Source: a virus (lineage: Duplodnaviria > Heunggongvirae > Uroviricota > Caudoviricetes). From it: a stretch of DNA of 64,000 nucleotides. The notes beneath the pieces were generated by a model, which saw nothing but the letters and a program-made list of their open reading frames with translations, made no database searches and was not told where the DNA came from. The first letter of the stretch is position 1. Every line of letters starts with the position of its first letter. Positions 3,113-58,516 of the stretch are shown here, piece by piece. The stretch lies in IMG/VR virus record IMGVR_UViG_3300026521_000571; one strand, written 5' to 3'. The position numbers and the translations under genes are program-made.

Positions 3113-3156
3113 TCTAGAGATAGGCTTAAGCCTATCTCTAGACCCTCCTGTGCCTC
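3113..3156 (+). terminator. Perfect 13-bp stem-loop (tctagagataggc-ttaa-gcctatctctaga) followed by the CCCTCCTGTGCC motif; putative terminator or processing site
   Basis: Seen directly; same hairpin-plus-CCCTyCyGT(G)CC architecture at 5078..5117 and 58472..58516. Confidence 0.6.
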
Positions 3157-10906: not shown

Positions 10907-12283
10907 TTAGAATGGAATTTGCATACCTGATTCTACATACGAAGAAGGACTATCATATTTGCGTTTGATATTATCCAAATCCTTCAAATTAACTATGTAT
11001 ATATTTAGTCCGGCGTCATTAAGCCCACCAATTAATGTTTGTATTTCTTCAGTCACATCTTCCATGTTCCATATGATAATTGGAAAATCATTATCTTGAA
11101 CACAAGTGGTAATAGTGACACCATTTTGAATCAAAGTTGTAGCTAGTTTTACCATTTGATTTAGATCTCTTATAAGAACTTCTGTTAATCGAATCGCGGT
11201 AATATCAGTCCGGTATCCAATAAACTTTTTTTGAAAGTATTCGAAACATTCATGAACTCTTTCAATTGCAGTTATTTGGAACTGCGAACGTAAAAGTTCT
11301 TGATCAATTAATCGATTTTCATTTCCAATAGTATAAATGAGTTCTTCTGCACTCATTTTGCTATAAAGTTCTTCTGGATACTTGCAATCTTTTAGCAAAT
11401 CCCTGGCGATCAGTTTTATATTAGATGAACCAGATATTGTATTGAATTTAATATCTCCAAAAATTACATTATTTATTAAAAAACTAAATTCTTTAAATGA
11501 TATAAGTTCAGATACTGTTTCAATAAAATCGATGAAATATTTATTGAGTCCGGATGACACAAGTAATAAATGCACCATATCTGATATTCCACTCGAATCT
11601 ATATTCCCAATTAGTAAACCATTCTCGCTATTTTTATAATATAAATAGTATGCTAATATTTTGCCAGGTTTTATGGATAGTTTTATTGAGTTGAGTCTTT
11701 TTAAAGCTTCAACTATAACACTCATATTGAATCGATCATTATAACTAAAACTGATATAAAAAGATACTGCGAAAATTTTTGCAATATCTTGATTTAAATC
11801 AAATTGATTTAAATCACGGTTCTCAATACCTTTGATATATTTTCTAACAAGAAGTATCATAAATCCAGGAGAACTATCTAACATAATTCTATAATCAGAT
11901 GTTCGTAAATAACTAGAAAAATGACAATCTGAGTTCCTGAACTTGATTTGAATACTCGGAAGCATTTTGAAAAATATATCAGGTTTCTCTTGGATTAATA
12001 GAGCATAAAATTGTATTCGAATATTTTTAACTCTATTTAATATCTCTTGAAGATCCTTAAGATTTATAATTTTACTAGATGAGTATTTTTTAATAACAGA
12101 AGATTGCCTCTGAATTTTTTTTAAGTTTATTATTAACTCAAAATAATTCTGAGGAACTGTCTGACAAATATCTTTAAGTATTTTAATATCATTACTTATT
12201 TTAATGTACTCGTCTTCAAAATCTTTTAGAATAATGGAGTCGAGTTCAAAAGAACTCGACTCCATTAATATTACATCTTGCAT
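10907..12283 (-). CDS. Hypothetical protein (458 aa)
   Basis: Long ORF. Confidence 0.55.
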   Translation of the reverse strand: MQDVILMESSSFELDSIILKDFEDEYIKISNDIKILKDICQTVPQNYFELIINLKKIQRQSSVIKKYSSSKIINLKDLQEILNRVKNIRIQFYALLIQEKPDIFFKMLPSIQIKFRNSDCHFSSYLRTSDYRIMLDSSPGFMILLVRKYIKGIENRDLNQFDLNQDIAKIFAVSFYISFSYNDRFNMSVIVEALKRLNSIKLSIKPGKILAYYLYYKNSENGLLIGNIDSSGISDMVHLLLVSSGLNKYFIDFIETVSELISFKEFSFLINNVIFGDIKFNTISGSSNIKLIARDLLKDCKYPEELYSKMSAEELIYTIGNENRLIDQELLRSQFQITAIERVHECFEYFQKKFIGYRTDITAIRLTEVLIRDLNQMVKLATTLIQNGVTITTCVQDNDFPIIIWNMEDVTEEIQTLIGGLNDAGLNIYIVNLKDLDNIKRKYDSPSSYVESGMQIPF

Positions 12284-13332: not shown

Positions 13333-13536
13333 TTATTTAAAATTTTTATTTAATAGGATAAGTGTATCCCAAACTAGACCAAGAATAGGAATTAGAGAAG
13401 TTAATCCAGTTATAAACATAAAGATATTGAAGTTTTGAATATCTTCAATATCTTTAAGATCTACTCTAGTTTTGGCCTTAAAAATAAGTCCAATTGCAAT
13501 TAATACTTGCACTATAATAATTATAAACCAAAACAT
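13333..13536 (-). CDS. Small membrane protein (67 aa, two TM helices); possible NfeD-like partner of the SPFH protein
   Basis: Hydrophobic composition; lies directly downstream of the SPFH gene. Confidence 0.4.
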   Translation of the reverse strand: MFWFIIIIVQVLIAIGLIFKAKTRVDLKDIEDIQNFNIFMFITGLTSLIPILGLVWDTLILLNKNFK

Positions 13537-14078
13537 TATTTTTCCTCCATTTTAAATATTTGCCAATCTTGAGCCAAAATGTCAGTTTGACTCGCAAGCC
13601 AAGGAACCATTTTATCATCAGCAGTCTTCATAGTTATATGTGGTTCATAAATAACTGGTTTTTCACCAAATATATTTTTGACCACTTGACAATCCGTTTC
13701 TAAAATCCCTTTCCCTGGTACCATAAATATAAACATACCTTTGCCGTTCCAGCCGGCACGCTGCACAGCATGTCCATTTCTCATCAGAGAGATTGCTTCA
13801 CCAAATCCAAATGGATAATCATTGCTCGCATAATTCTTTGAGAAAAATTCTGCATTGACAAACCAGAAATTTTTCTCATCTGTTGCAATAAAACCAACTG
13901 TTGTATCACAATCTTTCTTTTGACTAATAATTTTTTTATCATCCTCTGCAAAAGAAACAGGTATTCCATCTATCCCATTCACCATTGCGTCGAATGCTTC
14001 TTTACCATTAACTTCTGCTTGCATTACAAAAGTTCTTTTTCTCATATAACTTTTAAAATTCATTTTATTTTTATGCAT
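13536..14078 (-). CDS. Protein with a C-terminal DUF2829 / Tad2-like domain (180 aa)
   Basis: C-terminal NGHAVQRAGWNGKGMFIF ... PHITMKTADDKMVPWLASQTDILAQDWQI closely matches my recollection of the DUF2829 (anti-Thoeris Tad2) signature (RxGWNGKGMY ... KTAD..VPWLASQ.DLLAEDW); recollection, not a database hit. Confidence 0.6.
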   Translation of the reverse strand: MHKNKMNFKSYMRKRTFVMQAEVNGKEAFDAMVNGIDGIPVSFAEDDKKIISQKKDCDTTVGFIATDEKNFWFVNAEFFSKNYASNDYPFGFGEAISLMRNGHAVQRAGWNGKGMFIFMVPGKGILETDCQVVKNIFGEKPVIYEPHITMKTADDKMVPWLASQTDILAQDWQIFKMEEK

Positions 14079-16020: not shown

Positions 16021-16300
16021 AAATTAGCCTATTTTAGACAACCTTAAAGAACTTACCCGATGTAAGTTCAATATAATTATTTATATACTAAATTAAGTAA
16101 TTCTAATTATTTAGAAAATGCAAAAGCTAAATGTTTACATCGGCTTGAGTGCTTTAGCACTCGAAGCAATTAAATTAGAAAATGATTTATTTATAATAAT
16201 CATTTCTTGAAGACACTATGTTGGTTTATAAACCAACATAGTGTCGAATTATTTAGAAAATACAAAAGCTAAATGTTTACATCGGCTTGAGTTATAAATA
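16021..16300. promoter_or_regulatory. Divergent intergenic hub holding a ~70-bp promoter-like element (16021..16089), two copies of the GTTTACA-containing motif (16121..16150 and 16262..16290), hairpin gagtgct-tt-agcactc, and a ~100-bp element with a 34-bp perfect palindrome gacactatgttggtttataaaccaacatagtgtc (16212..16245)
   Basis: Seen directly; elements repeated at 24317..24388, 41811..41890 and 42162..42260. Confidence 0.7.
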
Positions 16301-22936: not shown

Positions 22937-23446
22937 CTATCTTATTTTTAATTCAACCAAGGCTTCGTCTATCGCTTTACCCAATAGATTCTGTCCAAGC
23001 CATTTGGATTTATCAAAGATCCTATTATCAGACCAATGTAATCCAATCCCCCATACTTTATCATACGGGCTTGCTTCTACAAAGAGCCTTTCTCCAATTT
23101 GCTTCTCAAAAGCTTCAGAGAATTCTTTATCTTTAAAAATCTCACGAAATTTAAAAATATTGCCAGCTTTTACAATTTGGAATTTATGTTCATCCCATAT
23201 CGCTTCATCAAAGCCTTTGACTCTTCTACCGTACTCTTTTATCCTCGCTTGATTTGAGGACTCAAGAATTTTCTTAGCCATCTGATGATCTCCAGATAAC
23301 TGAGCTTTATGATACATCATATATTGCTCAGCTGAATTGAACTCAATACCGGAGGCCTCGAAACTAAATTTGAACCATTGTGAAAATGGCCCATTCCAGA
23401 AGAAAGCATACTCGATACTTCTTCTATTCACCAGTTGCAATTCCAT
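22937..23446 (-). CDS. NADAR (YbiA/DUF1768) family protein
   Basis: FFWNGPFSQWF ... FNSAEQYMMYHKA ... GRRVKGFDEAIWDE ... IVKAGNIFKF ... FVEASPYDKVWGIGL match the conserved NADAR blocks. Confidence 0.85.
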   Translation of the reverse strand: MELQLVNRRSIEYAFFWNGPFSQWFKFSFEASGIEFNSAEQYMMYHKAQLSGDHQMAKKILESSNQARIKEYGRRVKGFDEAIWDEHKFQIVKAGNIFKFREIFKDKEFSEAFEKQIGERLFVEASPYDKVWGIGLHWSDNRIFDKSKWLGQNLLGKAIDEALVELKIR

Positions 23447-23833
23447 TTATTTCTCCAGACGATATATTTCGAGAGTATTCTCATTATATGAAGAATTATT
23501 AATTTTACGCGAACCAAAACCATGCATTGATAATTTTTTATCAATTATTTTTTGAAATTCAGGATAATAATCAAAGATTACTATACTACTTTTATCCAAT
23601 AAATTATTGATAATTTTTATTATCTCAAGTTCGAGATTTGAAATTACAGAGAATGTTTTTGGAGTAATGTTATACTTATTAAAATATTCTCTAGCCGATT
23701 TTGGTGAAGGTAAAAACGGGAATCTTGCATCTTTATCATAGATGCAAATCTGAATATGATATGCACCCAAACAGTTACTAACGATCACCCGATAATCAGT
23801 ATTATCTATATTAACTGATATACTATCTTTCAT
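23447..23833 (-). CDS. Hypothetical protein (128 aa)
   Basis: ORF with AAGGAAA RBS, immediately downstream (minus sense) of repeat copy 1. Confidence 0.5.
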   Translation of the reverse strand: MKDSISVNIDNTDYRVIVSNCLGAYHIQICIYDKDARFPFLPSPKSAREYFNKYNITPKTFSVISNLELEIIKIINNLLDKSSIVIFDYYPEFQKIIDKKLSMHGFGSRKINNSSYNENTLEIYRLEK

Positions 23834-23859
23834 TTTAATTTCCTTCTTATTTTATTTAT

Positions 23860-24044
23860 TTTTATTTTATTTTAAAAAAAATAGATGATTTATAACCCGC
23901 TGTCTCTGCGGCGTATGTTTAGTACCCAAGACTAACGCACATTGGCTGTTAGTGAATACCAGAGCATACATACAGTTTTTGATAACTAAAGTTACTGTAT
24001 AAACTTTAGCCAAGCACCCGACAACTTAATGCCGGACCTGGAAG
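23860..24044. repeat. Copy 1 of a ~185-bp element, 100% identical to 48916..49100 (ttttattttattttaaaaaaaatagatgatttataacccgctgtctctgcggcg ... gccggacctggaag)
   Basis: Base-by-base comparison of the two loci; GC-richer than surrounding DNA; internal hairpins such as ctaaagtt-actgtataa-actttag. Confidence 0.9.
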
Positions 24045-24060
24045 TTATTAATAGATCGGC

Positions 24061-24291
24061 TTAGGCGTTACCCAGCTCCAATCTATTAACAACATATTCT
24101 TTATCTTCGGAGATCTCGAAGACCTCCGAGACTCCGAGATAATCTTCCAGCAAGTGTACACTTGCTGGAAGAACAGAAGATTCGGCGCAAGCTTGCGCCG
24201 AATCTTCATCTCTGAAATGGCCTACGATAGACGCCTCAGCATCTATCACAACGTAGAGCTTAAGCTCTACGTGGCCCAATAGTCTTTTCAT
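24061..24291 (-). CDS. Small acidic protein (76 aa) in a GC-rich island; the ORF contains three perfect palindromes of 22..30 bp
   Basis: AAGGAG Shine-Dalgarno 6 nt before the ATG; codon usage far more GC-rich than its neighbours; the palindromes raise the alternative of a structured RNA or DNA element. Confidence 0.45.
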   Translation of the reverse strand: MKRLLGHVELKLYVVIDAEASIVGHFRDEDSAQACAESSVLPASVHLLEDYLGVSEVFEISEDKEYVVNRLELGNA

Positions 24292-24316
24292 CTTTTCTCC
24301 TTTATTCAGATTGATG

Positions 24317-24388
24317 AAAAATTAGCCTGTTGTAGGCAACATAAAGAACCTACCCGATGTAAGTTCAATAATATTATTTATATACTCA
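24317..24388. promoter_or_regulatory. Conserved ~70-bp promoter-like element (aaattagcctgttgtaggcaacataaagaacctacccgatgtaagttcaataatattatttatatact)
   Basis: Near-identical copies at 16021..16089 and 41811..41890, partial at 50264..50310 and 40836..40890; TATAAATA on the minus strand. Confidence 0.6.
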
Positions 24389-24441
24389 TTAGAGTAATTC
24401 TAAAAAACAAAGGGTTCAAAGTATTTTTAAAAGGATTAAAA

Positions 24442-25002
24442 ATGTCAACACAAAACAGCGCAGACACAGTATATGAATCAGTTCAAAATTATGTACGTCA
24501 TGATTTAAGTGAAAGTTTTACACCTTGGAGTGCTAAAGAACTCGAAGAAAAGAATAAAGAAGTCCGTTATAAATTTAGCTCAAGTAGTCTAAAAAAACTA
24601 GAAGGATTACATCCTGCTTTAGTGGATATTATTTTCGAGGTAGCCAACTCTATAGATTTGACAATAGTTTACGGATTAAGAACAGCTGAGGAGCAACATA
24701 AGTTATATCTAGCTGGAAGAAGTTCTAAAGATGGATATATTAAAAAATCTAGACATCAAAGTGGAAAAGCCGTTGATATATTGCCTCGACCAAGAGGTGT
24801 AAATATGTATAACTCAAAAGATAGAGATAATCCAACACGTTGGGCTTATTTTACAGGATTCTTCCAAGCAACAGCATTGGCTCTTGGATACGAAACTAGA
24901 GTTGGTTGGAAATGGAGAACAGATCCAATGGAAGTTCTAAAAAGACCTCTGAGAGAAAATAGCCTAGTTGATCCAAATCATTTCGAGATTTATATTAGGT
25001 AA
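24442..25002 (+). CDS. Peptidase M15 family endolysin (VanY / L-alanyl-D-glutamate peptidase-like)
   Basis: LRTAEEQHKLYLAG ... SRHQSGKAVDI metal-binding and catalytic motifs typical of M15 peptidoglycan hydrolases. Confidence 0.8.
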   Translation: MSTQNSADTVYESVQNYVRHDLSESFTPWSAKELEEKNKEVRYKFSSSSLKKLEGLHPALVDIIFEVANSIDLTIVYGLRTAEEQHKLYLAGRSSKDGYIKKSRHQSGKAVDILPRPRGVNMYNSKDRDNPTRWAYFTGFFQATALALGYETRVGWKWRTDPMEVLKRPLRENSLVDPNHFEIYIR

Positions 25003-26887: not shown

Positions 26888-29800
26888 GAAGGGTCTATCT
26901 GTTTAATAAAGACATAATTGCCTGCGTCGAATATTCTGCGGTAGTCGTTATTGAACATATTCTCAGCTTCAGTAAGTTTTGGATCAAAAACTTTAAGTTT
27001 ATCTTTAAGCTTATGTTTCTGAAAGCTAGCTCTATGCCATAACTGCTGAGGATTATCTGGATGGAAATAATAATAGTTCGGTGAACTTATATTTTTTAGG
27101 GAAAAGCCGAGTGTTTTATATAGATTACCATCAGACCATCGGCGATTCGCATAACTAACCAAGGCTACACTTTTATCCTTAGGTAGATTTCTTTCGAAAG
27201 CCTTAAATAATTTACTAGCAGCTCCTGGAACAGACCAGTCTTTTTTAACAGCGAATCTAATTAATTCATAAGCAAGTCCTTTATTCTTTTCGAACCTTGT
27301 TTTACCAAATGTCATAATTGCAATTAATTCCCCTTTGTATCTTAGACCATATCTAATTGGTCCGATAGCATCTCCACCTTGCAGATGGTTTTCATCAAGA
27401 AAATCTCTAGCTTCAGGTACTTCTACACAAACTGTACACTTTCTAGCAAATACTCTATTTTTCTGTTTATGCATTTTATTCTGAATAACACTAAACCAAA
27501 TATTTTTCTGACGATTATCTAAGAACTCATTTTCATTAATATTCAAAAGATGAATACCTTTAGCTTCGGCATCTTTTAATTTCGAAAGCATTTGATTTCT
27601 ATCTTTACCAGGCGTATTGAAAATACTATGCTTACTTATACCTTGGCTATGGAACATCAAACCGTTGTATTCAATAGCTAGATTATAATCAGGTAGATAT
27701 AAATCTAATTCCTTAGGTGGAATAACATCTCTTGGGTTTCTAATAATTCTAGCATCAGGATCTATTGATTTAATAAAATTATATATTTCATCTTCAGCGT
27801 AGCTGGATGTTCGCTTTTTGTAAGTAATATTATGCTGGCGTAATAATTTATAAGCAGTTGTTTCACTACAGTTGATGGTTTCCATCATCCTGATTAAATC
27901 TAGCTTATTGTCTTCTACAAAAGATTTTAAAAACTCTTCACTGGATGGATATTTATTTTCAATTTTAGCCTTAAAACTATTTGCTTGTTGATAGCTATCG
28001 GCTCCATAACGTTCTCGACAAGTATTTTTGGTTTTAGCTAATGTTTCAGGCAATTTGCTTTGTATGATTGCTTTAAAACTAGGTGTTTGTGGATAATAGT
28101 CTACTCCATAACGTTCGCGATTGGTTTCAATAACTTTTAATTTACATTCATCCGTTTGTGAATAATGTTCTACACCATAACGTTCGCGATTGGTTTTAAT
28201 AACTTTTAATTTACATTCATCCGTTTGTGAATAATTTTTAACACCATATTTTTTAAGGTTAGTAGCTTTGGCTTTTTCTTGATATTCAGGCAACCTTACT
28301 TTATAAACATCAGATTGTGTGTAATTTTTAGCACCGTATTTTTTAAGATTAGTCTCTTGAGATTTCTTAATTATTTCTGGCAGTCTAGTTTTAAAACTAA
28401 TAGATTGCATAAAATGTTCTACACCATAACGTTCGCGATTGGTTTTAATAACTTTTAATTTACATTCATCCGTTTGTGAATAATTTTTAACACCATATTT
28501 TTTAAGGTTAGTAGCTTGAGATTTCTTAATTATTTCTGGCAGTCTTAATTTATAAATATCTGATTGTGTATAATGATCGACACCATACTGCTCACGACAA
28601 GTTGCTTTAGTTTTAGCTATTATTTCAGGTTTTCTTGATTTATAATTAACAGATTGTGTATAATAATCTGTTCCGTAACGCTCTTGGTTAGTTTTAATGG
28701 TTTTAATTTTATATTCATCTGTTTGTGGATAATAGTCTACTCCATAACGTTCGCGATTGGTTTCAATAACTTTTAATTTACATTCATCCGTTTGTGAATA
28801 ACTTTTGACACCGTATCTTTCAAGGTTAGTTTTAAAAATCTGTTTAATTATTTCAGGTAACCTAGTTTTAAAACTAGTTGATTGCGTATAATAATCGGTC
28901 CCATAGCGTTCGCGATTAGTTGCTTTGGATTTTAATTTATATTCATCAGTTTGAGTATAATATTCTACGCCGTATCTTTCGAGGTTGGTTTTAATAATTC
29001 TTAATTTGCATTCATCTGTTTGTGAATAATAATCTGTCCCATATCGTTCGCGATTGGTCTTAATAGTTTTATTTCTATATTCTGGTAATTTAGATTTATA
29101 TTCATCGGATTGTGTAAAATAAGCTGCTCCATACAATTTGCGGTTGGTTTCAATAACTTTTAATTTACATTCATCCGTTTGTGAATAACTTTTCGCCCCG
29201 TATTTTTCTAGGTTGGTTTTAAAAGCCCGTTTAATTATTTCAGGTAGCCTAGTTTTAAAACTGGTTGATTGCATATAACTGTCAGTCCCATAACGCTCAA
29301 GACAAGTCATCTTCGATTTAATTTTAAACTCATCTGTTTGGAAATACCAATCAGCATTATAACGCTCACGATTAGTTTTAATAATTTTTTCTAAAATTTT
29401 GATAGAATTTTCTTTAATAAAATTTTTAAAAGCTTCAGTTTGTGAATAATGTTCTACACCATATCTTTCAAGGTTAGTTGCTTTCGCTTTCTCTTGGACT
29501 TCGGGCAGCATACTTGGGACAGCAACTCCATATGTCTCCAAAAAATAATTTTTAGTTTTTTCTTTAATTTCTTCGGATTGTGCTGCGTGACGTACACCAA
29601 AACGCTCCAAATTAGTCTGTTCCTGTTTTTCTTTAATTTCTTTTACTTGCAAAGCATGTCTTACACCGTATTTTTCTTCGAGAGAATCCTGTGCTTTATC
29701 TACAGTATATCTTCTCATATATTCAGTATGTTCTTGGTCTTTTTTACCGCAGGTATAATAGAATCTACTTCTTCCCTGCTCATAAAATCTTAAGTCACCA

Positions 29801-32032: not shown

Positions 32033-33715
32033 ATGGAAAACGATATGTTAGAAAAGTACGATAAATTTATTAAAAAATATAGTTCATTAGGAATAATAAA
32101 TTTTAAAGGGATTCGAGGGAAATCAAAAGCGAATAAAAATCAAAAAAAATTAATACATGAAGCGGAAGATGAATTGTGGAAGCTGACAGATTTTGCACCT
32201 GAAAATTACACCACTAAAGATAGAATGCAATTGATACGTGCCAAAATAACTTCTGAAAATTTTAAATGCCCAGTGTGTTCTAAACCCAGAATTAAATCAA
32301 ATGGGATGAATAAATTTTCAATTACTTGTGGTAAAAAAGATAAAGAACATGTAGAATATGCAAAAAAAGTTTTAAGCGATAGATTAAGAAAACCTAAAAA
32401 ATGTCCAGTTTGCGGGATAATGCATAATAATCGAAGTAAAGCCCAACTATGTGGTCTGATTGATGATGAGCATAAACATCATGCTATATCCTACCAGCAA
32501 TCAAAATATAAAAACACATTAATGGAAAAATATGGTGTCGAAAATGTCTCACAATTGGAAACTACTAAAGAAAAAAAGAAGAAAAAATTTCTAGAAAAAT
32601 ATGGTGTTGAAAACCCATCTCAATTGCATTTTAATCTAGATAATTTTAAAAATCTGAATAAAGAATTTATAGAAAATAATTTTATTATTGATGGCAAATA
32701 TGTTGATTTTGAAAAAATGGAGGAATATCTTGGTTGCTCAATTGTTAAAGTAAAATCAGTTCTTAAAGAGTTTGGTATAAAATATAAAAGACGTATCGGA
32801 GTGAGTAAACCTGAAAAAGAAATTTTAGATTTCATTAAAACAATAGATCCAGATGTTAGAGTTATTATGAATTCAAAGACCATTATTCCGCCTAAAGAAT
32901 TGGATTTATATCTACCTGATTATAATCTAGCTATTGAATACAATGGCTTGATGTTCCATAGCCAAGGTGTAAGTAAACACCGTATTTTCAATACTCCTCT
33001 AAGAAATCGTAATGAATTTTTAATAAAGACTAAAGTTTGTGAAAAAAAAGGAATACAGCTTTTACATATCAATGAAAATGAATGGTTAGATGATAAATTA
33101 AATATAATATGGAAATCAGTAATTAGAAATAAATTAAGAAAGAATACAATAAGTATAGGTGCTAGAAAATGTTTTCTTAGAAAACTAGTAACAGATGAAG
33201 ATCTAAAATTAAGCGCTAATTTTTTTTATGAAAACCATCTGCAAGGTGCAGGTGCTTTGGGTTCAATAAGGTATGGTTTATTTTATGAAGGCGAATTAAT
33301 ATCATGTATGACATTTGGTAAGACTAGATTTAGAAGAGGAGCATATGAATTAATAAGATTTGCTAATAAAATAAATTATAGTGTTCCAGGAGCGGCTAGT
33401 AAACTTTTAAAAGCATTCAGACAAGACCATAGCACAATTATTGTGAGTTATGCCAATCGCCGATGGTCTGATGGTAATTTATATAAAACACTTGGATTTA
33501 AATTAGAAGGAATTTCGAGTCCAAATTACTATTATTTTCATCAAAAAAATAAATTTAAGCTATGGCATAGAGCTAGCTTCCAGAAACATAAGCTTAAAGA
33601 TAAACTTAAAGTTTTTGATCCAAAGCTTACTGAAGCTGAGAATATGTTCAATAACGGCTTCCGTAGAATATTCGATGCAGGCAATTATGTCTTCATCTTA
33701 GAGGAGAAGGGTTAG
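32033..33715 (+). CDS. Paralog of 26884..30072: short-repeat version with the same C-terminal nuclease-like domain and tail
   Basis: Zn-ribbon-like CPVCS ... TCGKKDKEH and CPVCG ... CG; two EKYGVEN repeat units; LDLYLPDYNLAIEYNGLMFHSQG identical to the paralog; 3' ~130 bp about 95% identical at DNA level; start chosen at ATG 32033 to avoid overlapping terL. Confidence 0.7.
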   Translation: MENDMLEKYDKFIKKYSSLGIINFKGIRGKSKANKNQKKLIHEAEDELWKLTDFAPENYTTKDRMQLIRAKITSENFKCPVCSKPRIKSNGMNKFSITCGKKDKEHVEYAKKVLSDRLRKPKKCPVCGIMHNNRSKAQLCGLIDDEHKHHAISYQQSKYKNTLMEKYGVENVSQLETTKEKKKKKFLEKYGVENPSQLHFNLDNFKNLNKEFIENNFIIDGKYVDFEKMEEYLGCSIVKVKSVLKEFGIKYKRRIGVSKPEKEILDFIKTIDPDVRVIMNSKTIIPPKELDLYLPDYNLAIEYNGLMFHSQGVSKHRIFNTPLRNRNEFLIKTKVCEKKGIQLLHINENEWLDDKLNIIWKSVIRNKLRKNTISIGARKCFLRKLVTDEDLKLSANFFYENHLQGAGALGSIRYGLFYEGELISCMTFGKTRFRRGAYELIRFANKINYSVPGAASKLLKAFRQDHSTIIVSYANRRWSDGNLYKTLGFKLEGISSPNYYYFHQKNKFKLWHRASFQKHKLKDKLKVFDPKLTEAENMFNNGFRRIFDAGNYVFILEEKG

Positions 33716-34612: not shown

Positions 34613-34643
34613 GGGAAGGTTGTGTTCTGAACACAACCTTCCC
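34613..34643 (-). terminator. Rho-independent terminator for the minus-strand operon ending at 34649: perfect 14-bp stem (gggaaggttgtgttc-tg-aacacaaccttccc) followed on the minus strand by a long T-run
   Basis: Seen directly; A-run at 34590..34612 on the plus strand is the U-tract in minus sense. Confidence 0.75.
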
Positions 34644-35013: not shown

Positions 35014-35325
35014 CTATGAGAGATCTTTAAAGATCTCTTTCATTTTTGCTTGAGTTTCCTCAAGTTGCTTGACTTTATCTTTTACTTTTTTACGACCTTT
35101 CTTTGTACTAATGTTACGCCCAACAACATCTTCAGGTTTAATATCCATTTTCTTAGCTGTTTTTTTAGCAAATTTAGCTAGATCTTTTAAGGTTGCATCC
35201 TCTGAAAGAATTCCACCTTTTTTATAAGCTTCTAAAAAACCAACCATAGCGACAGTTGTTTCAGCTATAAAATTTGCAGCATCCGGAACATTCACCAACA
35301 TTTGACCTTTTTCTATTGTAATCAT
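35014..35325 (-). CDS. Hypothetical basic protein (103 aa)
   Basis: ORF, start coupled to the Pnkp-like gene stop. Confidence 0.5.
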   Translation of the reverse strand: MITIEKGQMLVNVPDAANFIAETTVAMVGFLEAYKKGGILSEDATLKDLAKFAKKTAKKMDIKPEDVVGRNISTKKGRKKVKDKVKQLEETQAKMKEIFKDLS

Positions 35326-37829
35326 TTTTCTTCCTTTAAAATTTTAATTATTTTTCTTCTTAGTGTCGGAACATCTAGATTGTGTTCACCATTTTCGTGA
35401 ATCTGTTTCAATGCCTCAAGAACCTTAAATTCTTCAGCAATATGTAGTGATTTTTTGACCAGTATCTCTTTCTCTTTGGTGAATCCTCCTTTTTTTTGAT
35501 TCAAGTAATATTTATTAACTTTGTGTTCGATTCCTCTTACTCTTTTCCAAAAACTATACCAAGGTGTTTTTAATTTAAACATTATTGGTGATTGACCATC
35601 GTTTGTGTTATCTTCGAACACAAAGCCTTCAAAGCCATCGTCAATAAATAATGGTTGTCTTTTATACTGGTTTATAAAAGCACTTAAATCCAATGAATTG
35701 TGTAGTTTATCTACGATTTCTTTTACAGGTGCGCCTATATAAACACTATTAAAATCCAATAAACCTTCGTAACTCATTTTTTTGAAGTTCAATTCATTAT
35801 AGATAATATCTAATAGAATCGCTTGCCCTTCAGGATACCCAACGATATGTGGATCTTTGACCGGATCAATAATTTCAAATACCAATGTAGCATTGAGTTC
35901 TTGCAATTTTATTAAAAGATTCGGAGTCAAGAAATCTTTCGTATGTTCTCGAACCATATCTGGATAATCACCTTTTATAGTACTTTTGCTTGCGAAGAAC
36001 CATTTGCCATTTCTAACAGATACTAAACCGAGAAAACCATTAGGTTTATCGAACACGCTAACTGGATAGTTTAAGCTTTCAAAATCAGCTGGTGTTAATC
36101 CCATTCGCTCATTGAGGTTAAAGAATTTATTATAACCACGGGCCACTATTTCGATCGGATTGTTTTGAGTTAAAAATAAACCTCTAGCTCTTAAAGTTAT
36201 ATCCGACCAGTGGCCTTTTTGAAAGACAGATGATTTAAAATTTACACTTTCGATTTTTTCATCACCTTCTTCAAAATATAATTCTTTGCATACAGTTCCT
36301 TGATCAGTTTTGAGTTCTTCTAGAACCTTTTGATGTTCTTCTTCTGGAATTATGTCGACAGCGAAAGCCGCACTTTTTTTAAGACGTCGAGTTCTTAAAC
36401 ACTCTTTTGTCTTTTCTGTCGGCTCTTGATTGATAATCCTTATGTTTGAGTTATTTATAACACAAGCTCGAATACCAATGCTAACATCACCATTTAAGTT
36501 GATTAATGGAAAAGTATCCATAGCCTCTTTATTCTCTGGATTTCTATGGCCCGAGAATTGGATGACATTTTGAGTCCTCTCTTTGAATACATTGGCTATT
36601 TCATATATGTCTTCATATACTCCAATTCCATTTATAAGTTCATTAGCTGGTGTCACAAGATTTGGAACACTCGGAGTTCCGGTGTGGTTCGAGTACAAAT
36701 GAACTCTTTTACCTTGAAATATAAAAGAAGAGATTCTATAAGGAACCATTTTTCGCCAGATTTTCATAAGATCATTTCTAGTTATATGACTCAACATTAG
36801 AATCAACATTGATCTTCTTGCACTAAATCTAATGTTTTTTACATCTGTTGCTGTTGCACTATCAACATTTATAAATTCTTTCTTTTTGAAAAGAGTCCAA
36901 AATAACTCATAACGCAATTCTTTTAAAAGATCTTCATCCAGAATTCTATGAAGTTTATCAATATCTCTATACGCTGCAATCTTGCCGAATCCTTTTTGCT
37001 CCAAGAAAATATTGATATGAGGGAGAGCTGCTTTATATAAACTCTTAAAATATATCATAGAGCCTTCGTGATTGCCTTGAATCAATTGACAATTATGATT
37101 ATCAATCAAATCTAAAAGAATTGTTGCTGTTTCAACAATACTCTTTGCGCTTGGACCTCGATCAAAATAATCACCGAGGAATGTTATATTTTTAGGGGCT
37201 TCATTAGATTCCCAATCAACACCAGCTGCCTTTAGAGTTAATTTTAACTCATCAGCACAACCATGAATATCACCAATATATATTTTCTCATGGGTTTCAG
37301 TTTCATCAAAAGCAGTTCCAGAGAACTCATTAGCAAATTCATGTGGTTTTATTACTGAGTACCAATTTGGATGTTCAATCAATTGACTTCTATACCATAG
37401 GGTTTCAATTCGATCATTTGGAACTTTATTGATTGTCCGGTGCCCGTTTCTTTCAAGAAGAGTTTCTAAAGACACATCAGTAAAATCAATACACTTGATT
37501 TGATATCTATGCTCTTCTTTATATTTTTTATAAATTCTTATCGCAGCCTCACGAGTGTGTGTTGCATCAACTACAATCATTTCACCATTTTTAGCTTTCT
37601 GATCTATAATTTTAAAAACCATTTCCCAAACGAGTTCTTCTGAACTCATTGCGTACCGGCGACTTGCGTCAACCTGTTGCTCTGGGAAATTTATCATTTT
37701 CCTAATGTTATCAGGACTCACAACACAGTGTTGCAAAATATCACTACCAAAAATATCTTGTGATGTTTTTTCAATTAATGTTGTTTTTCCTGCGCCAGGA
37801 GCTCCCAGCATAAAATATAAAACTCTCAT
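35322..37829 (-). CDS. Pnkp-like trifunctional RNA repair enzyme: polynucleotide kinase, calcineurin-type phosphatase and a C-terminal RNA-ligase-like adenylyltransferase
   Basis: N-terminal P-loop MLGAPGAGKTT; central GDIHG, GDYFDRG and GNHEG metallophosphatase motifs; C-terminal KxNG lysine motif (FDKPNGFLG) in a ~380-aa domain; order and size (835 aa) mirror bacterial Pnkp. Confidence 0.75.
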   Translation of the reverse strand: MRVLYFMLGAPGAGKTTLIEKTSQDIFGSDILQHCVVSPDNIRKMINFPEQQVDASRRYAMSSEELVWEMVFKIIDQKAKNGEMIVVDATHTREAAIRIYKKYKEEHRYQIKCIDFTDVSLETLLERNGHRTINKVPNDRIETLWYRSQLIEHPNWYSVIKPHEFANEFSGTAFDETETHEKIYIGDIHGCADELKLTLKAAGVDWESNEAPKNITFLGDYFDRGPSAKSIVETATILLDLIDNHNCQLIQGNHEGSMIYFKSLYKAALPHINIFLEQKGFGKIAAYRDIDKLHRILDEDLLKELRYELFWTLFKKKEFINVDSATATDVKNIRFSARRSMLILMLSHITRNDLMKIWRKMVPYRISSFIFQGKRVHLYSNHTGTPSVPNLVTPANELINGIGVYEDIYEIANVFKERTQNVIQFSGHRNPENKEAMDTFPLINLNGDVSIGIRACVINNSNIRIINQEPTEKTKECLRTRRLKKSAAFAVDIIPEEEHQKVLEELKTDQGTVCKELYFEEGDEKIESVNFKSSVFQKGHWSDITLRARGLFLTQNNPIEIVARGYNKFFNLNERMGLTPADFESLNYPVSVFDKPNGFLGLVSVRNGKWFFASKSTIKGDYPDMVREHTKDFLTPNLLIKLQELNATLVFEIIDPVKDPHIVGYPEGQAILLDIIYNELNFKKMSYEGLLDFNSVYIGAPVKEIVDKLHNSLDLSAFINQYKRQPLFIDDGFEGFVFEDNTNDGQSPIMFKLKTPWYSFWKRVRGIEHKVNKYYLNQKKGGFTKEKEILVKKSLHIAEEFKVLEALKQIHENGEHNLDVPTLRRKIIKILKEEK

Positions 37830-38311
37830 TAATCATCACCTGAATCGCTAGAATAACTTGAGCCGCCTGAACCGCTAGAATAACTTGAGCCACCAGAACC
37901 GCTAGAATAACTTGAGCCGCCTGAACCGCTAGAATAACTTGAGCCGCCTGAACCGCTAGAATAACTTGAGCCGCCTGAACCGCTAGAATAACTTGAGCCA
38001 CCAGAATCTATATCACTACTAGAATCGTCAGTTAACATTTCCGCCATTAAAATATGATCCAATATATCATTATCGTCAAGTTCATTCTTAATTTCATTTT
38101 TTGAATTCTGTCTTGACTTTATTTTACGAGCGTCAGATAATTTAACATTTTCAGATTCTGATCCAGATTCAGACCCAGGTTCTAATTTATAAGGTGCTTT
38201 TTTCTTATAAACATGTTTCTCATAAGTGCTTTGTGAAAAAGTAATATAAATCCAGATTCCAATAATAAAAAGAATACCTAAACCCATTAAAACATAATCT
38301 AAAGTTGTCAT
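37829..38311 (-). CDS. Membrane-anchored protein (160 aa) with six tandem GSGGSSYSS repeats at its C-terminus
   Basis: N-terminal TM helix LMGLGILFIIGIWIYITF; coding 27-bp tandem repeat. Confidence 0.55.
   Translation of the reverse strand: MTTLDYVLMGLGILFIIGIWIYITFSQSTYEKHVYKKKAPYKLEPGSESGSESENVKLSDARKIKSRQNSKNEIKNELDDNDILDHILMAEMLTDDSSSDIDSGGSSYSSGSGGSSYSSGSGGSSYSSGSGGSSYSSGSGGSSYSSGSGGSSYSSDSGDD
37846..38007. repeat. 27-bp tandem repeat x6 (cgctagaataacttgagccgcctgaac) encoding the Ser/Gly/Tyr repeats
   Basis: Seen directly; period 27 bp. Confidence 0.85.
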
Positions 38312-40818: not shown

Positions 40819-40913
40819 CGTTTCTCCTTCAAATAAAAAAAATAAATTAGCCTATTTTAGGCACCTCTAAAGGGTATTTATAAAAGCGCCCCCCGATTGG
40901 CGCTTTATGAAAT

Positions 40914-41750: not shown

Positions 41751-41759
41751 CTTATAAGA

Positions 41760-48158: not shown

Positions 48159-48893
48159 TCATATTGCATCATTATTTAAAAACCCAAAAAGAGTATCTCT
48201 TAGGCGGCTAGGTGCCTCAACAATACTTTTTTTATCATCATCAGCTGCCTGTTTTAAACAACCAGCATCTATAAAATTTTGTGTGCTTGATTCAAGTTTC
48301 TCCAAATATTTTCCCATTTTTAATAGTTCAATATTTTTATCAACCTCATAATCTGGCCCAGCCGCTTGTAAAATACCAGCTCTAAAAGAAAGTCTAGAAA
48401 ATCTTTCAATCCATGAAGATAGTCTAATATTTAACACTCGACATTGAGCATCATAATTAGACTGACTTTCTTTAGGTATTACATTTTTATTTAGATTATA
48501 AATCCTTTTGCCAGCTCCAGAATTTGGATCTGTGTAATCCTTACATTCATTCATTAATAGTACGGTTTTTAATGAATGAAAAACAAGAAACGAGTTTTTA
48601 TTAACAGCAATTGAATCATCTTGAGTTATATATAACTCATCTTCAATTGATTTACATGTTTTCTCTGGGAGTCCATTTCCCGGCTCCATTACTGCAGCCA
48701 CACCCAAATAGCTTAATTGGTCGTATTTCATACCCTCTATAGATTGGATATAAAAATCCCAAATAACCCTCTGGCCTTTATCTGAAATTTTATAATTTAG
48801 AGAATCGTCCGACTTTGCTTCAATCGAAGCACCAATTACGATTGCAATAGCCATCATCAATCCCAATACTAAATCTTTTGTATATTTACTCAT
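48159..48893 (-). CDS. Secreted protein (244 aa) with signal peptide
   Basis: N-terminal LVLGLMMAIAIVIGASIEA signal-like segment; AAGGAAA RBS. Confidence 0.55.
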   Translation of the reverse strand: MSKYTKDLVLGLMMAIAIVIGASIEAKSDDSLNYKISDKGQRVIWDFYIQSIEGMKYDQLSYLGVAAVMEPGNGLPEKTCKSIEDELYITQDDSIAVNKNSFLVFHSLKTVLLMNECKDYTDPNSGAGKRIYNLNKNVIPKESQSNYDAQCRVLNIRLSSWIERFSRLSFRAGILQAAGPDYEVDKNIELLKMGKYLEKLESSTQNFIDAGCLKQAADDDKKSIVEAPSRLRDTLFGFLNNDAI

Positions 48894-48915
48894 TACAATT
48901 TCCTTTTTAATTTTA

Positions 48916-49100
48916 TTTTATTTTATTTTAAAAAAAATAGATGATTTATAACCCGCTGTCTCTGCGGCGTATGTTTAGTACCCAAGACTAACGCACATTG
49001 GCTGTTAGTGAATACCAGAGCATACATACAGTTTTTGATAACTAAAGTTACTGTATAAACTTTAGCCAAGCACCCGACAACTTAATGCCGGACCTGGAAG
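48916..49100. repeat. Copy 2 of the ~185-bp element, 100% identical to 23860..24044
   Basis: Base-by-base identity. Confidence 0.9.
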
Positions 49101-49255
49101 GTTAATCTTTTATTGACACCTCTAACTATTTTCCTTTCCGATCCATATCCCGCTCGGTTGGGTAGAAATATCCCTTACACGGTTGACGACGCCAATTTCA
49201 TTATCTATAGCTTACGCTATCTCCTTATGAAATTAACGTCTGGCAATTGCTGTCC

Positions 49256-49603
49256 TCAGACTCTGAAGAAACCAGCTTTCGCCGTAACAACTCTCTTTTC
49301 AGAAAGTTTAGTCCATCCGTTCTTTGTAGCTCTAAGACCACTCTGAACAGGTGAAACACCTTCCTGACAGAAAGTTGTTACATGAAGAACAGTCCCTGAC
49401 CCTTGATGAGTCAGGCGTTCTCCATTTGGTAATTCTACCTCAACGATATCGCATGCGACATCGTTATCTTGGTATTTACCAACGACGAAAAGCTTTACTT
49501 CAGTTCCTTCCGGAACAGGCAACTTGCACTTTCCAGGAGCGAACTCCCAAGTGCAATGCAACCCATTTTCCAGAAAGAAAGCTGAGTATATTGCTTTTGC
49601 CAT
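49256..49603 (-). CDS. Small protein (115 aa) in a GC-rich island with foreign codon usage
   Basis: Very strong Shine-Dalgarno (AAAGGAGGATAA then ATG); GC-rich codons; no recognised motif. Confidence 0.55.
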   Translation of the reverse strand: MAKAIYSAFFLENGLHCTWEFAPGKCKLPVPEGTEVKLFVVGKYQDNDVACDIVEVELPNGERLTHQGSGTVLHVTTFCQEGVSPVQSGLRATKNGWTKLSEKRVVTAKAGFFRV

Positions 49604-50350
49604 TTATCCTCCTTTCTGGGTAATGACTTAGGAGACATCACCACCCGAAGATAAGATTTTAGCCCATATCCTCTTTTAGGACATTTACCGATATTGTGGT
49701 TTAGAGGACCAAGTCGACCTTGGACGCCCACACGCTCGGTTAACACGCATCGCAGACTACTCACCTCAATTGGAGGCTTCTTTGTGTTTTACACATTGTC
49801 CCTACGACGACATCAGCAACCAGTTTAACCTACTACTGGAAAGAAATAATTCTACTAAAACATCCAATGATATCATAGTAGAATTATTATATTATACACG
49901 TACTCGAGACGAATCTCGAGATTATAACGCCTGCTGGCCAACAGGTTATCCCTTTTGATGCTTTTCACATCAGGCGGACAGTCTAAACTCTCCAACTTAT
50001 ATAGTTATTAATTCCCATATAAGTAGTATTTTGCCGAAATCCGAAGATACGACATGTTTTATGTATATTAAATACTAGAATATACAACCATTATTTAAAG
50101 TTCTAGGGGAACCCGCACAATATAATTAGACTTTTTATCAGACTATCTTTGACTAATGTCCTTTCGATAATCTTCAATACTAATCTAATTGTATGAATTG
50201 CACTAGAGATAGCATACACTTATCTCCTAAAAATACTTCAGAGCAATAAATTACTCCTTGTACTTTCAATAATATTATTTATATACTTCAAGAAGTTATT
50301 CTAAAATAATAAAATGTCCAAAACAAACATTAATACATAGAGGAGTTCAA

Positions 50351-58465: not shown

Positions 58466-58471
58466 TTATTT

Positions 58472-58516
58472 GGAGGTTGAGTGCTTAAGCACTCAACCTC
58501 CAACCCTTCCGTGCCC
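58472..58516 (+). terminator. Perfect 13-bp stem-loop (ggaggttgagtgc-ttaa-gcactcaacctcc) followed by AACCCTTCCGTGCCC
   Basis: Third member of the hairpin-plus-CCCTyCyGTGCC family. Confidence 0.6.

What the first reader, a model, noticed from the sequence alone, without database searches (positions are those of the whole stretch)
23860..24044. Two 100%-identical ~185-bp non-coding elements 25 kb apart, each at the boundary of a GC-rich island
The loci 23860..24044 and 48916..49100 are base-for-base identical in a genome where even paralogous coding regions have diverged. Both sit just upstream (minus sense) of an AT-rich phage gene, 23447..23833 and 48159..48893. Both are followed on their other side by DNA of sharply different, GC-rich composition, and that DNA carries a small gene with a near-consensus Shine-Dalgarno. 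Each island is closed on its far side by the ~70-bp promoter-like element (24317..24388; partial at 50264..50310). Perfect identity implies recent copying or strong selection. Candidate roles are a moron or cassette acquisition site (a VCR-like recombination site), a terminator-leader module transferred with its cargo, or a structured ncRNA. The element contains several hairpins and ends, in minus sense, with a T-run.
Basis: seen in the sequence. Interest (0 to 1): 0.85.

Follow-up and report, generated by a model that had tools for sequence, protein, structure and literature searches.

The report
Repeated structured intergenic cassette in phage
Two identical copies of a roughly 185-230 base intergenic module, most likely a folded RNA segment ending in a T-run, sit between swappable accessory genes in two operons of an uncultured AT-rich phage and mark the points where neighbouring genes get exchanged. 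This is a local variant of the conserved linker cassettes already known in phages, not a new kind of system.

Summary
Window 23860-24044 and 48916-49100 are 185/185 identical, and looser homology runs on to the start codons of the next genes. Both copies lie in minus-strand operons. Each follows a compositionally foreign (GC3-rich) cargo gene: a 76-aa ORFan, and a 115-aa 2H-phosphoesterase-fold protein. Each precedes a highly variable gene. Independent assemblies confirm the junctions.

The element occurs only in this phage lineage. Rfam, phage, plasmid, viral-contig and genome scans found nothing. In relatives it is 98-99% identical against a 92% background, and identity falls to 25-50% immediately downstream. 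Cargo B occurs in other phages without the element. A relative joins a cargo-A 3' end to the copy-B downstream gene. Two otherwise identical genomes differ almost only beside the element.

The minus-strand RNA folds into a closed multi-helix domain. It has a 7-bp loop-to-downstream complementarity (0/400 shuffles), G-U/G-C changes and a U8 tract.

Best reading (about 0.45): a resident, PeSL-like regulatory linker, meaning a cis-acting structured RNA/attenuator plus ribosome-binding site. Gene conversion keeps the copies identical, and the copies serve as homology for cassette exchange. It is not an integron attC site, a MITE, a DGR or a known RNA family. Interest is moderate.

The parts
23885..24056 (-). 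Copy A, structured core. It comprises closing stem P0 (AUAAC...GUUAU, extendable into the flank), P1 (12 bp with a bulge), P2 (8 bp with an 8-nt loop), an A-rich linker, P3 (a long interrupted hairpin) and P4 (GCCGC/GCGG with a 7-nt loop). The P2 loop AUACAGU is complementary to ACUGUAU 10 nt downstream.
   Evidence: Minus-strand MFE is -50.1 kcal/mol, z -2.6; plus strand is -43.0, z -1.8. Suboptimal folds all keep the same helices. Loop-to-downstream complementarity of 7 nt occurred in 0/400 dinucleotide shuffles.
23834..23884 (-). Copy A tail: AUCUA-U8, an (AAAAU)n-like AT tract and the SD GAAGGAAAUU, running up to the ATG of the 128-aa gene.
   Evidence: Sense-strand intergenic T>=7 runs elsewhere in the window nearly all follow terminator hairpins.
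48941..49112 (-). Copy B, structured core. It is identical to copy A from 49100 downward. Its 5' flank GAUUAAC can still close P0.
48894..48940 (-). Copy B tail: U8, AT tract and the SD AAAGGAAAUU, running up to the ATG of the 244-aa gene.
24061..24291 (-). Cargo A: a 76-aa acidic ORFan, GC3 0.46. It is coding (third-position substitution excess, in-frame indel in a relative). It also carries 3-5 long perfect palindromes that are kept by compensatory changes in relatives.
   Evidence: The model has pLDDT 79 with no fold match.
49256..49603 (-). Cargo B: a 115-aa protein with a 2H-phosphoesterase fold and two invariant H-x-T motifs (CNPase/LigT/Acb1-like).
   Evidence: (pLDDT 95).
49113..49255 (-). 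Cargo B's own 3' trailer. It includes a roughly 55-nt motif (49132-49184) shared with the homologue in L036, with compensatory changes. The cargo/element junction lies at about 49110-49130.
49604..50260 (-). GC-rich non-coding leader of cargo B. It is strongly and strand-specifically structured and has no homologue anywhere searched.
   Evidence: For 49604-50000, minus-strand MFE is -131 kcal/mol, z -5.4; plus strand is -90.6, z -2.7. No matches.
24319..24403 (.). D5 divergent promoter/operator-like element closing island A. It contains the hairpin GCCUACAACAGGC, the 12-nt palindrome AATAATATTATT, and TATAAATA on the minus strand.
   Evidence: four copies: 16022, 24319, 41800, 50220.
50253..50307 (.). 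Partial D5 element closing island B. Only the core TTCAATAATATTATTTATATACT is kept.
23447..23833 (-). Gene downstream of copy A: a 128-aa ORFan. Its only database match is itself.
48159..48893 (-). Gene downstream of copy B: 244 aa with an N-terminal hydrophobic segment. It is hypervariable, at 25-50% nt identity to the L010 allele while the neighbours are about 92%.

Best explanation
The element is a resident intergenic regulatory cassette of this phage lineage. It is transcribed on the minus strand as part of two leftward operons that start at the divergent D5 promoter regions.

Its roughly 165-nt core folds into a compact multi-helix RNA domain closed by a terminal stem, probably with an H-type pseudoknot or an alternative helix. 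The core is followed by U8, an AT-rich spacer and the ribosome-binding site of the next gene.

I infer that it acts in cis at the cargo/operon boundary. It would work as an attenuator/insulator or a processing-and-stabilising leader that sets how much transcription and translation passes from the interchangeable first gene into the genes behind it.

Because it is a long, identical stretch in an otherwise mosaic region, homologous recombination uses it in two ways. Gene conversion between the two copies keeps them identical. Exchange with co-infecting relatives swaps the genes on either side. This is the role shown for PeSL cassettes in T4-type phages.

Shown: anatomy, copy number, lineage restriction, elevated conservation, mosaic boundaries at both edges, and independence from the cargo.

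Inferred: transcription, strand, RNA function and the attenuator mechanism.
For: - Anatomy: the homology spans from just after the upstream gene or trailer to the downstream ATG, including the SD.
- Strand: all flanking genes are on the minus strand. The minus-strand fold is better (-50.1 vs -43.0 kcal/mol). Both paired-position substitutions in relatives are G-U<->G-C or C-G<->U-G changes, which keep pairing only on the minus strand.
- Structure: the helices are stable across suboptimal folds. A 7-nt loop/downstream complementarity occurred in 0/400 shuffles. The closing stem can form with three different 5' flanks. The core is 42% GC against 19-38% for other intergenic DNA.
- U8: sense-strand intergenic T>=7 runs elsewhere in the window follow terminator hairpins.
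- Conservation: 98.2% against L010, compared with a median of 92.4% and a 95th percentile of 97.1% for 170-nt windows. Identity drops to 25-50% in the next gene. The element is near-invariant downstream of gene-A alleles that are only 77-87% identical at the protein level.
- Cargo independence: cargo-B homologues in L002-L006 and L036 lack the element.
- Recombination: L010 joins a gene-A-type 3' end to the copy-B downstream gene. L037 differs from the window at 5 sites in 14.4 kb, all within 24069-24458, and four of them in the last 50 nt of gene A next to the element.
- Context: a third leftward operon has an analogous terminator + TATAAATA + leader junction after a GC-rich cargo, MYG1-like at 40914-41750.
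- PeSL precedent: PMC2839356.
Against: - There is no expression data, so transcription, the 3' end at U8 and any regulatory effect are unproven.
- Only four substitutions are known, with no compensatory double change, so the fold has no covariation support.
- The z-score of -2.6 is unremarkable in this hairpin-rich genome (mean z -0.9, sd about 2).
- U8 lies 15 nt after the nearest GC hairpin, so this is not a canonical intrinsic terminator.
- No convincing shared promoter was found in the tail.
- There are only two copies, unlike the dozens of PeSLs in a genome.
- Relatives are close (about 92% nt identity), so part of the conservation could reflect recent spread rather than constraint.
- The L010 junction rests on 22 nt at a contig end and could be an assembly path choice.
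Confidence: 0.45

Rival explanations
1. It is a discrete small RNA. The roughly 170-nt domain would be released from the 3' end of the cargo transcripts, by processing at its 5' side and termination or trimming at U8. It would then act in trans, for example as a regulator, decoy or anti-defence RNA, rather than controlling its neighbours.
For: The domain is compact and closed by a terminal stem, followed by U8. Unpaired linkers and loops are as invariant as the stems. The core is GC-enriched in an AT-rich genome. The two copies could be for dosage. The neighbourhood is rich in counter-defence-type genes: NADAR, Tad2-like, a 2H phosphoesterase and Pnkp/RNA ligase.
Against: The two copies share no upstream promoter, because their 5' flanks are unrelated. 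There is no canonical terminator. The homology continues past U8 into the SD of the next gene, which fits a cis module better. There is no Rfam match.
Confidence: 0.17
2. It is a DNA-level recombination joint. The two direct repeats would bound a 25,056-bp segment (24045-49100) that can loop out or integrate. The element would then function as an att-like or homologous crossover site, and the RNA fold would be incidental.
For: The repeats are direct. L010 shows exactly the junction expected of the circularised or re-joined segment: the left flank of copy B, the element, then the right flank of copy A. Mosaic breakpoints sit at both edges. PeSL-mediated circles are documented in T4-type phages.
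Against: No integrase, recombinase, transposase or HNH gene was found among the 64 ORFs scanned, though 43 kb of the source contig was not seen. The 25-kb segment carries the terminase gene and shares the D5 and palindrome regulatory repeats with the rest of the genome, so it is not an obvious foreign element. There are no terminal inverted repeats or target duplication (sequence inspection). The L010 evidence is 22 nt at a contig end. The strand-specific G-U pattern is not explained by this model.
Confidence: 0.15
3. It is a recent, functionally neutral duplication of one intergenic region. In that case it would be ordinary non-coding DNA copied along with a rearrangement and not yet diverged.
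For: There are only two copies. Relatives are close. This genome is full of repeated regulatory DNA.
Against: The boundaries coincide with functional landmarks (the end of the cargo and the next ATG) rather than arbitrary points. Conservation against relatives is in the top few percent of windows, and the element sits beside the most divergent gene. GC enrichment and the non-random loop complementarity argue for constraint.
Confidence: 0.13
4. It encodes a small hydrophobic peptide: a 48-aa ORF at 24013-23867 / 49069-48923 with a TTG start. It would be, for example, a type I toxin-like or membrane peptide with a highly folded mRNA.
For: The ORF is open in both copies and has a hydrophobic centre and a basic tail. 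The 5'-3' closing stem is reminiscent of hok-type mRNAs (own knowledge).
Against: The start is TTG with no usable SD. A 53-codon open frame is expected by chance in about 1 in 5 such segments (own estimate). Both substitutions inside the ORF in relatives are non-synonymous, and one is V->G in the hydrophobic stretch.
Confidence: 0.05

Closest known systems
PeSL cassettes (promoter-early + stem-loop) of T4-type phages (Arbiol et al. 2010, PMC2839356; Comeau et al. 2014, PMC4122927)
   Same: Both are conserved intergenic modules running from the upstream stop to the downstream ATG, with a stem-loop, an AT-rich tract and an SD. Both lie next to ORFans and accessory genes in plastic regions. Both act as homology for insertion, deletion and replacement of the flanking genes, possibly through circular intermediates.
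   Different: This element is two to three times longer, with a multi-helix, possibly pseudoknotted, domain instead of one stem-loop. No sigma-70-type promoter could be shown, and the T-run is not adjacent to a hairpin. There are two copies rather than about 50. The genome's real PeSL-like family is the separate D5 element (hairpin + promoter, four copies).
put RNAs of phage HK022 and nutL/nutR of lambda (own knowledge)
   Same: In both cases there are two near-identical cis-acting RNA sites, one in each of two early operons. They are placed promoter-proximally and, for putR/nutR, just after the first small gene and ahead of a terminator.
   Different: put is a roughly 65-70-nt two-stem RNA and nut is a 15-nt hairpin plus boxA. 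There is no sequence or structural similarity here. Antitermination is untested, and the two operons here are not symmetric arms around a repressor gene.
Integron attC / Vibrio VCR sites
   Same: Both are repeated structured sequences at the 3' side of promoterless, compositionally foreign cassettes.
   Different: There is no integrase, no R''/L''-L'/R' organisation and no cassette array. The element is multi-branched and its homology includes the next gene's RBS. The cargo occurs elsewhere without it.
Boundary/linker sequences of modular phage evolution (Susskind-Botstein linkers; lambdoid 'boundary sequences'; own knowledge)
   Same: Both are short conserved intergenic stretches at mosaic joints between exchangeable modules.
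   Different: Those sequences are mostly short and unstructured. This one is long, GC-enriched and folded.
Autoregulatory leader pseudoknot of T4 gene 32 mRNA (own knowledge)
   Same: Both are phage 5'-leader RNAs with an H-type pseudoknot ahead of an AU-rich tract and an RBS.
   Different: That element is single-copy and bound by the product of the downstream gene. Here two unrelated genes follow.

Membership tests
PeSL-type regulatory linker cassette | [quoted passage not shown] | tested here: met
   Homology runs from 16 nt after the gene A stop (copy A), or from the end of cargo B's trailer (copy B), to the ATGs at 23833 and 48893.
PeSL-type regulatory linker cassette | Contains a strong sigma-70-like early promoter (-35/-10) | tested here: not met
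   The consensus scan finds only a weak TTTAAA-16-TAAAAT in the copy A tail and nothing equivalent in copy B. TATAAAT is present, but it is common in this genome.
PeSL-type regulatory linker cassette | Contains a stem-loop that can terminate or attenuate upstream transcription | tested here: inconclusive
   Several stable helices and a U8 are present, but U8 is 15 nt after P4 and 2-10 nt after the AU-rich closing stem. No functional assay was possible.
PeSL-type regulatory linker cassette | Many dispersed copies concentrated in hyperplastic regions next to ORFans | tested here: not met
   Only two copies in 64 kb. Both are, however, flanked by ORFans or variable genes.
PeSL-type regulatory linker cassette | Recombination at the cassette shuffles the flanking genes | tested here: inconclusive
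   The evidence is indirect: different cargo at the two copies, the recombinant junction in L010, an identity cliff at the 3' edge, and a mismatch cluster next to the 5' edge. No direct detection of recombinants was possible.
Integron attC / VCR | Integron integrase (IntI) and an attI/Pc platform nearby | tested here: not met
   No integrase or recombinase Pfam hit among the 64 ORFs scanned in the window. The remaining 43 kb of the contig was not seen.
Integron attC / VCR | R'' (RYYYAAC) and R' (GTTRRRY) core sites bracketing one imperfect hairpin of 57-141 nt with extrahelical bases | tested here: not met
   The ends read (T/G)AT(T/A)AAC ... GTTATAA, which share only the AAC/GTT core. The fold is a four- to five-way junction of about 165 nt.
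Integron attC / VCR | Tandem array of cassettes, each with its own attC | tested here: not met
   There are two copies 25 kb apart, each with a single cargo gene.
MITE / IS-derived element | Terminal inverted repeats and a target-site duplication | tested here: not met
   The 5' end CTTCCAGGTCCGGC and the 3' end ...GGGTTATAAATCATCTA are not inverted copies of each other. The flanks share no duplicated target. No transposase was found.
Any curated RNA family (Rfam 15) | Score at or above the family gathering threshold | tested here: not met
   There were no hits at gathering thresholds on the whole window. In sensitive mode the best hit is a 27-nt plant-virus pseudoknot model at 25.9 bits against GA 39. 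No tRNA or tmRNA was found.
Diversity-generating retroelement TR/VR pair | Reverse transcriptase nearby, VR inside a target gene, and differences only at adenines | tested here: not met
   No RT was found. Both copies are intergenic and 100% identical.
Canonical intrinsic terminator | GC-rich hairpin followed within 0-2 nt by a U-run | tested here: not met
   The scans do not call one on the minus strand at the element. Canonical examples elsewhere in the window, at 21802, 34610 and 22214, show what they look like in this genome.
put-like processive antiterminator RNA | Cis-acting RNA that modifies RNA polymerase so that it reads through downstream terminators | not testable with these tools
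   Only the positional analogy holds: two copies, each promoter-proximal in an operon, after the first gene. Testing needs in vitro transcription or reporter assays.

The most novel reading that the evidence does not exclude
The roughly 165-nt core is a previously undescribed class of cis-acting structured RNA. It would be a pseudoknotted attenuator, antiterminator, riboswitch or self-processing domain that gates read-through from interchangeable counter-defence cargo genes into the rest of an early operon. It would belong to a lineage of uncultured AT-rich phages whose genomes are unusually dense in conserved hairpins. A further possibility is that the two copies also let a 25-kb genome segment loop out as a circle.
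Probability: 0.2. Interest if true: 0.7.

Novelty: new variant of a known kind. Interest (0 to 1): 0.4.

Why it matters
If the reading is right, this is a worked example outside the T4 group of how phages keep accessory and counter-defence genes swappable. A long, conserved, folded linker would supply expression control for whatever gene lands next to it and also the homology that recombination needs.

It would also extend the PeSL idea from simple promoter/stem-loop motifs to a large structured RNA domain.

Practically, such linkers are useful landmarks for finding hypervariable anti-defence slots in metagenomic phage genomes. They also cause assembly breaks and possible mis-joins.

If the core turns out to be a new regulatory RNA or ribozyme class, it becomes a candidate for structural and mechanistic study. 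The present evidence does not reach that far.

Tried and rejected
- Known RNA families: no hits at gathering thresholds on the whole window. Sensitive scans of 1.1 kb, 1.6 kb and 208 nt gave only sub-threshold chance hits. No tRNA or tmRNA was found.
- Homologues elsewhere: blastn of the element and islands against 50,697 phage records and 72,556 plasmids gave nothing relevant. Exact-core scans of IMG/VR (two cores), GTDB genomes (two cores) and JGI metagenomes gave only L010. A covariance model over 537 kb of fetched loci found no diverged copies.
- Relatives through flanking proteins: the radical-SAM and 244-aa genes gave nothing in IMG/VR. NADAR gave 24 unrelated phages without the element. 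The 128-aa gene has no homologue at all.
- Extending beyond the window failed. Three window proteins are not on record under my ORF calls, so 43 kb of the 107-kb source contig remain unseen.
- Segmental duplication of an 8.3-kb module (the spacings 16.0->41.8 kb and 24.3->50.2 kb are similar) is rejected. tblastx shows that only the regulatory repeats match, not the proteins.
- The non-coding part of island B as a pseudogene: no translated similarity to any fetched locus or to the rest of the window.
- Also considered and rejected: attC, MITE, DGR, canonical terminator and peptide-coding readings (see the membership tests and rivals).
- A T7 class-II-like pause signal (ATCTGTT vs ATCTATTTT) was considered, but no single-subunit RNA polymerase is in the window, so I did not pursue it.
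- The fold of gene A gave no structural match.

Full report
**What is there**

Window 23860-24044 and 48916-49100 are identical over exactly 185 nt. With small indels the similarity continues through an (AAAAT)n-like tract and a GGAAATT Shine-Dalgarno to the start codons at 23833 and 48893. It is the only long, near-perfect dispersed repeat in the window. A covariance model built from it finds exactly two copies.

The window is part of a 107-kb metagenomic contig from an AT-rich phage (31% GC). The phage has a T4-type terminase, ribonucleotide reductase, a Pnkp/RNA-ligase fusion, NADAR, a Tad2-like protein and many ORFans. Its large proteins have no matches in the phage database or in PHROGs.

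**The copies are real**

- An independent 27.9-kb ENA contig (L037) is 99.965% identical to window 27853-13447. It runs straight through gene A, the element and the 128-aa gene.
- A k=31 Logan contig (L035) is 100% identical to window 50060-49071. It stops exactly 30 nt (k-1) into the element, which is the signature of a repeat branch.
- A JGI contig from a relative (L010) carries the element followed by the homologue of the 244-aa gene.

**Context**

All genes around both copies are on the minus strand. The genome has four copies of a hairpin-plus-promoter-like element (D5) at 16022, 24319, 41800 and 50220, each at a point where leftward and rightward operons diverge.

In minus sense the order at copy A is D5, gene A (24291-24061, 76 aa), the element, a 128-aa ORFan, then NADAR and further genes.

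At copy B the order is:
- a partial D5;
- a 650-nt GC-rich non-coding leader;
- gene B (49603-49256, 115 aa);
- a 143-nt trailer;
- the element;
- a 244-aa gene;
- a 140-aa gene;
- a radical-SAM gene.

Genes A and B, and a third first-in-operon gene (MYG1-like, 40914-41750), are compositional outliers. Their GC3 is 0.35-0.46, against 0.20-0.28 in core genes. The 'GC-rich islands' are therefore real.

Gene B folds with high confidence (pLDDT 95) as a 2H phosphoesterase with two invariant H-x-T motifs. It is related by fold to CNPase, LigT-type enzymes and phage Acb1. Gene A has no detectable relatives outside this lineage and no fold match.

**The element is resident; the cargo is not**

Gene B homologues (51-67% identity) occur in six other phage-like contigs, with different neighbours and without the element. 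The closest homologue (L036) shares a 55-nt 3'-UTR motif with window 49132-49184, with compensatory changes. It then ends in its own hairpin and T8. This places the cargo/element junction at about 49110-49130.

By contrast, gene-A alleles that are only 77-87% identical at the protein level are followed by a nearly invariant element, with one to three substitutions.

**Conservation and mosaicism**

Against L010, 170-nt windows have a median identity of 92.4% and a 95th percentile of 97.1%. The element scores 98.2%. The gene immediately downstream falls to 25-50%. That is an identity cliff at the element's 3' edge.

At the 5' edge, L037 and the window differ at only five positions in 14.4 kb. 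All five lie in 24069-24458, and four are in the last 50 nt of gene A beside the element. This looks like a short conversion patch carrying the allele seen in L007 and L009.

L010 begins with 22 nt of a gene-A-type 3' end, then the element, then the copy-B downstream gene. The window has island B in that position. This is either a recombinant arrangement or the junction expected if the 25,056-bp segment between the direct repeats is re-joined. Because it rests on 22 nt at a contig end, I treat it as suggestive only.

**Fold**

The minus strand folds better than the plus strand (-50.1 vs -43.0 kcal/mol; z -2.6 vs -1.8). All near-optimal folds share the following features:
- a closing stem;
- a 12-bp bulged helix P1;
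- an 8-bp hairpin P2;
- an A-rich single strand;
- a long interrupted hairpin P3;
- a short GC hairpin P4.

Seven of the eight P2 loop bases (AUACAGU) are complementary to ACUGUAU 10 nt downstream. The loop lengths (1, 0 and 9 nt) are compatible with an H-type pseudoknot, or alternatively with a mutually exclusive helix. Complementarity of this kind occurred in 0 of 400 dinucleotide shuffles.

The closing stem can form with all three 5' flanks seen.

Four substitutions are known in relatives:
- two convert G-U to G-C or C-G to U-G in P1, which preserves pairing only in the minus-strand RNA;
- one lies in a linker;
- one breaks a pair near the P2 loop.

No pair changes on both sides, so covariation cannot be tested. 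The z-score is not exceptional for this genome, which is hairpin-rich throughout.

The U8 run is not adjacent to a hairpin, so it is not a canonical terminator. Other sense-strand intergenic T>=7 runs in the window do follow terminator hairpins. The analogous junction after the MYG1-like cargo is a clear terminator followed by TATAAATA, a leader hairpin, T8 and an SD.

**Interpretation**

The simplest account of all this is a resident regulatory linker. It would be a cis-acting folded RNA segment with a U-tract and RBS that insulates or attenuates expression between an exchangeable first gene and the genes behind it. Gene conversion would keep the two copies identical, and the same homology would be used for cassette exchange. 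I give this about 0.45.

This works like the PeSL cassettes of T4-type phages, which are promoter plus stem-loop modules that mediate modular shuffling and can form mini-circles (PMC2839356). The element fails PeSL membership on the promoter, on the simple terminator and on copy number. The genome's D5 family is the closer PeSL analogue.

Rival readings:
- a processed trans-acting small RNA (0.17);
- a DNA-level joint for a 25-kb segment (0.15);
- a neutral recent duplication (0.13);
- a small hydrophobic peptide gene (0.05).

The attC/VCR, MITE, DGR and known-RNA-family readings were tested and not met.

**Limits**

- There are no expression data.
- Only one lineage of close relatives is available.
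- 43 kb of the source contig could not be retrieved.

**Verdict**

I class the element as a new variant of a known kind, of moderate interest (0.4).

The most novel reading still open is that the core is a new class of pseudoknotted regulatory RNA, at probability about 0.2.

Noticed in passing
whole window; e.g. 442-471, 3113-3142, 10665-10704, 12232-12267, 16212-16245, 34613-34643, 42201-42234, 58470-58503: The genome is about 8-10 times enriched in long perfect hairpins: 57 with stem >=9 bp and loop <=10, against 2-9 in composition-matched shuffles. About a third are perfect palindromes with no loop at all (centres TTAA, TATA, GTAC, AGCT, AATT). That pattern suggests symmetry at the DNA level, not only RNA hairpins. 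Many lie inside coding regions.
   Followed up: partly
window 24061-24291 (gene A); L007, L008, L009: Gene A is protein-coding (third-position substitution excess, in-frame 3-nt indel). It nevertheless consists largely of 3-5 consecutive perfect palindromes of 22-32 nt. The 85-116 hairpin exists in four different sequence versions in four relatives, each perfectly paired, which is clear compensatory evolution inside an ORF. The MYG1-like gene shows the same at 41414-41442 compared with L010.
   Followed up: partly
window 41936-42234; related copies at 1-146 and 16102-16295: An array of eight back-to-back palindromes sits in the 615-nt divergent intergenic region downstream of a D5 element. Partial copies in both orientations occur at two other operon starts. 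Folding z-scores reach -14.
   Followed up: no
window 16022-16106, 24319-24403, 41800-41884, 50220-50304: The D5 family is a hairpin (GCCTAnnnnTAGGC) plus a conserved core, TTCAATAATATTATTTATATACT. The core contains a 12-nt perfect palindrome and TATAAATA on the minus strand. Copies sit at every divergent operon start. It is probably a bidirectional promoter/operator, and it is the genome's closest analogue of PeSLs.
   Followed up: partly
window 40828-41884: The GC-rich MYG1-like exonuclease gene (40914-41750) carries its own strong terminator (40882-40905). It lies between the hairpin half of a D5 element (40828-40872) and a D5 copy whose hairpin is degenerate (41800-41822). This looks like a cargo insertion into a D5 element with partial duplication.
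   Followed up: partly
window 49256-49603: Gene B is a minimal (115-aa) 2H phosphoesterase with two H-x-T motifs (pLDDT 95). It is a possible cyclic-nucleotide or RNA-end phosphodiesterase of the Acb1/LigT/CNPase kind. Its mRNA is strongly and strand-specifically structured (z -5 to -7 on the minus strand, about 0 to -2 on the plus strand).
   Followed up: partly
window 49604-50260: A 650-nt non-coding, GC-rich leader lies upstream of gene B, with very stable strand-specific folding. For the 397 nt from 49604 to 50000, the minus-strand MFE is -131 kcal/mol (z -5.4), against -91 (z -2.7) on the plus strand. It has no homologue anywhere searched. It may be a separate structured RNA.
   Followed up: partly
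window 49132-49184; L036 1268-1325: A conserved 3'-UTR motif of about 55 nt travels with gene B homologues. It has two small helices with compensatory changes between the window and L036.
   Followed up: partly
window 46512-46801: The convergent intergenic region between the 197-aa gene and the radical-SAM gene is the most conserved stretch against L010, at 99.4% over 170-nt windows against a 92% median. It is more conserved than the element itself.
   Followed up: no
window 26906-27797 and 32811-33696: The 3' ends of two oppositely oriented genes share about 900 nt at 77-94% identity. The genes are the 1062-aa DUF7487 protein and a 597-aa protein next to the terminase. They therefore have paralogous C-terminal domains.
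   Followed up: no
window 28066-29507 and 37812-38027: There are two sets of in-frame tandem repeats. One has 69/90/159-nt units inside the DUF7487 gene. The other is six 27-nt units at the junction of the 160-aa gene (37829-38311) and the Pnkp/RNA-ligase gene (35322-37829).
   Followed up: no
window 13536-14078, 22937-23446, 35322-37829, 49256-49603: The leftward operons hold a cluster of probable counter-defence or RNA-repair functions: Tad2-like, NADAR, polynucleotide kinase-phosphatase/RNA ligase, and the 2H phosphoesterase. This fits the idea that the variable slots next to the element hold arms-race genes.
   Followed up: partly
L002 (sample 3300013103): A more distant phage contig with a gene B homologue comes from a Guaymas Basin hydrothermal sediment metagenome. 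This hints at a vent or sediment habitat for the group. The source sample of the window itself was not identified.
   Followed up: partly
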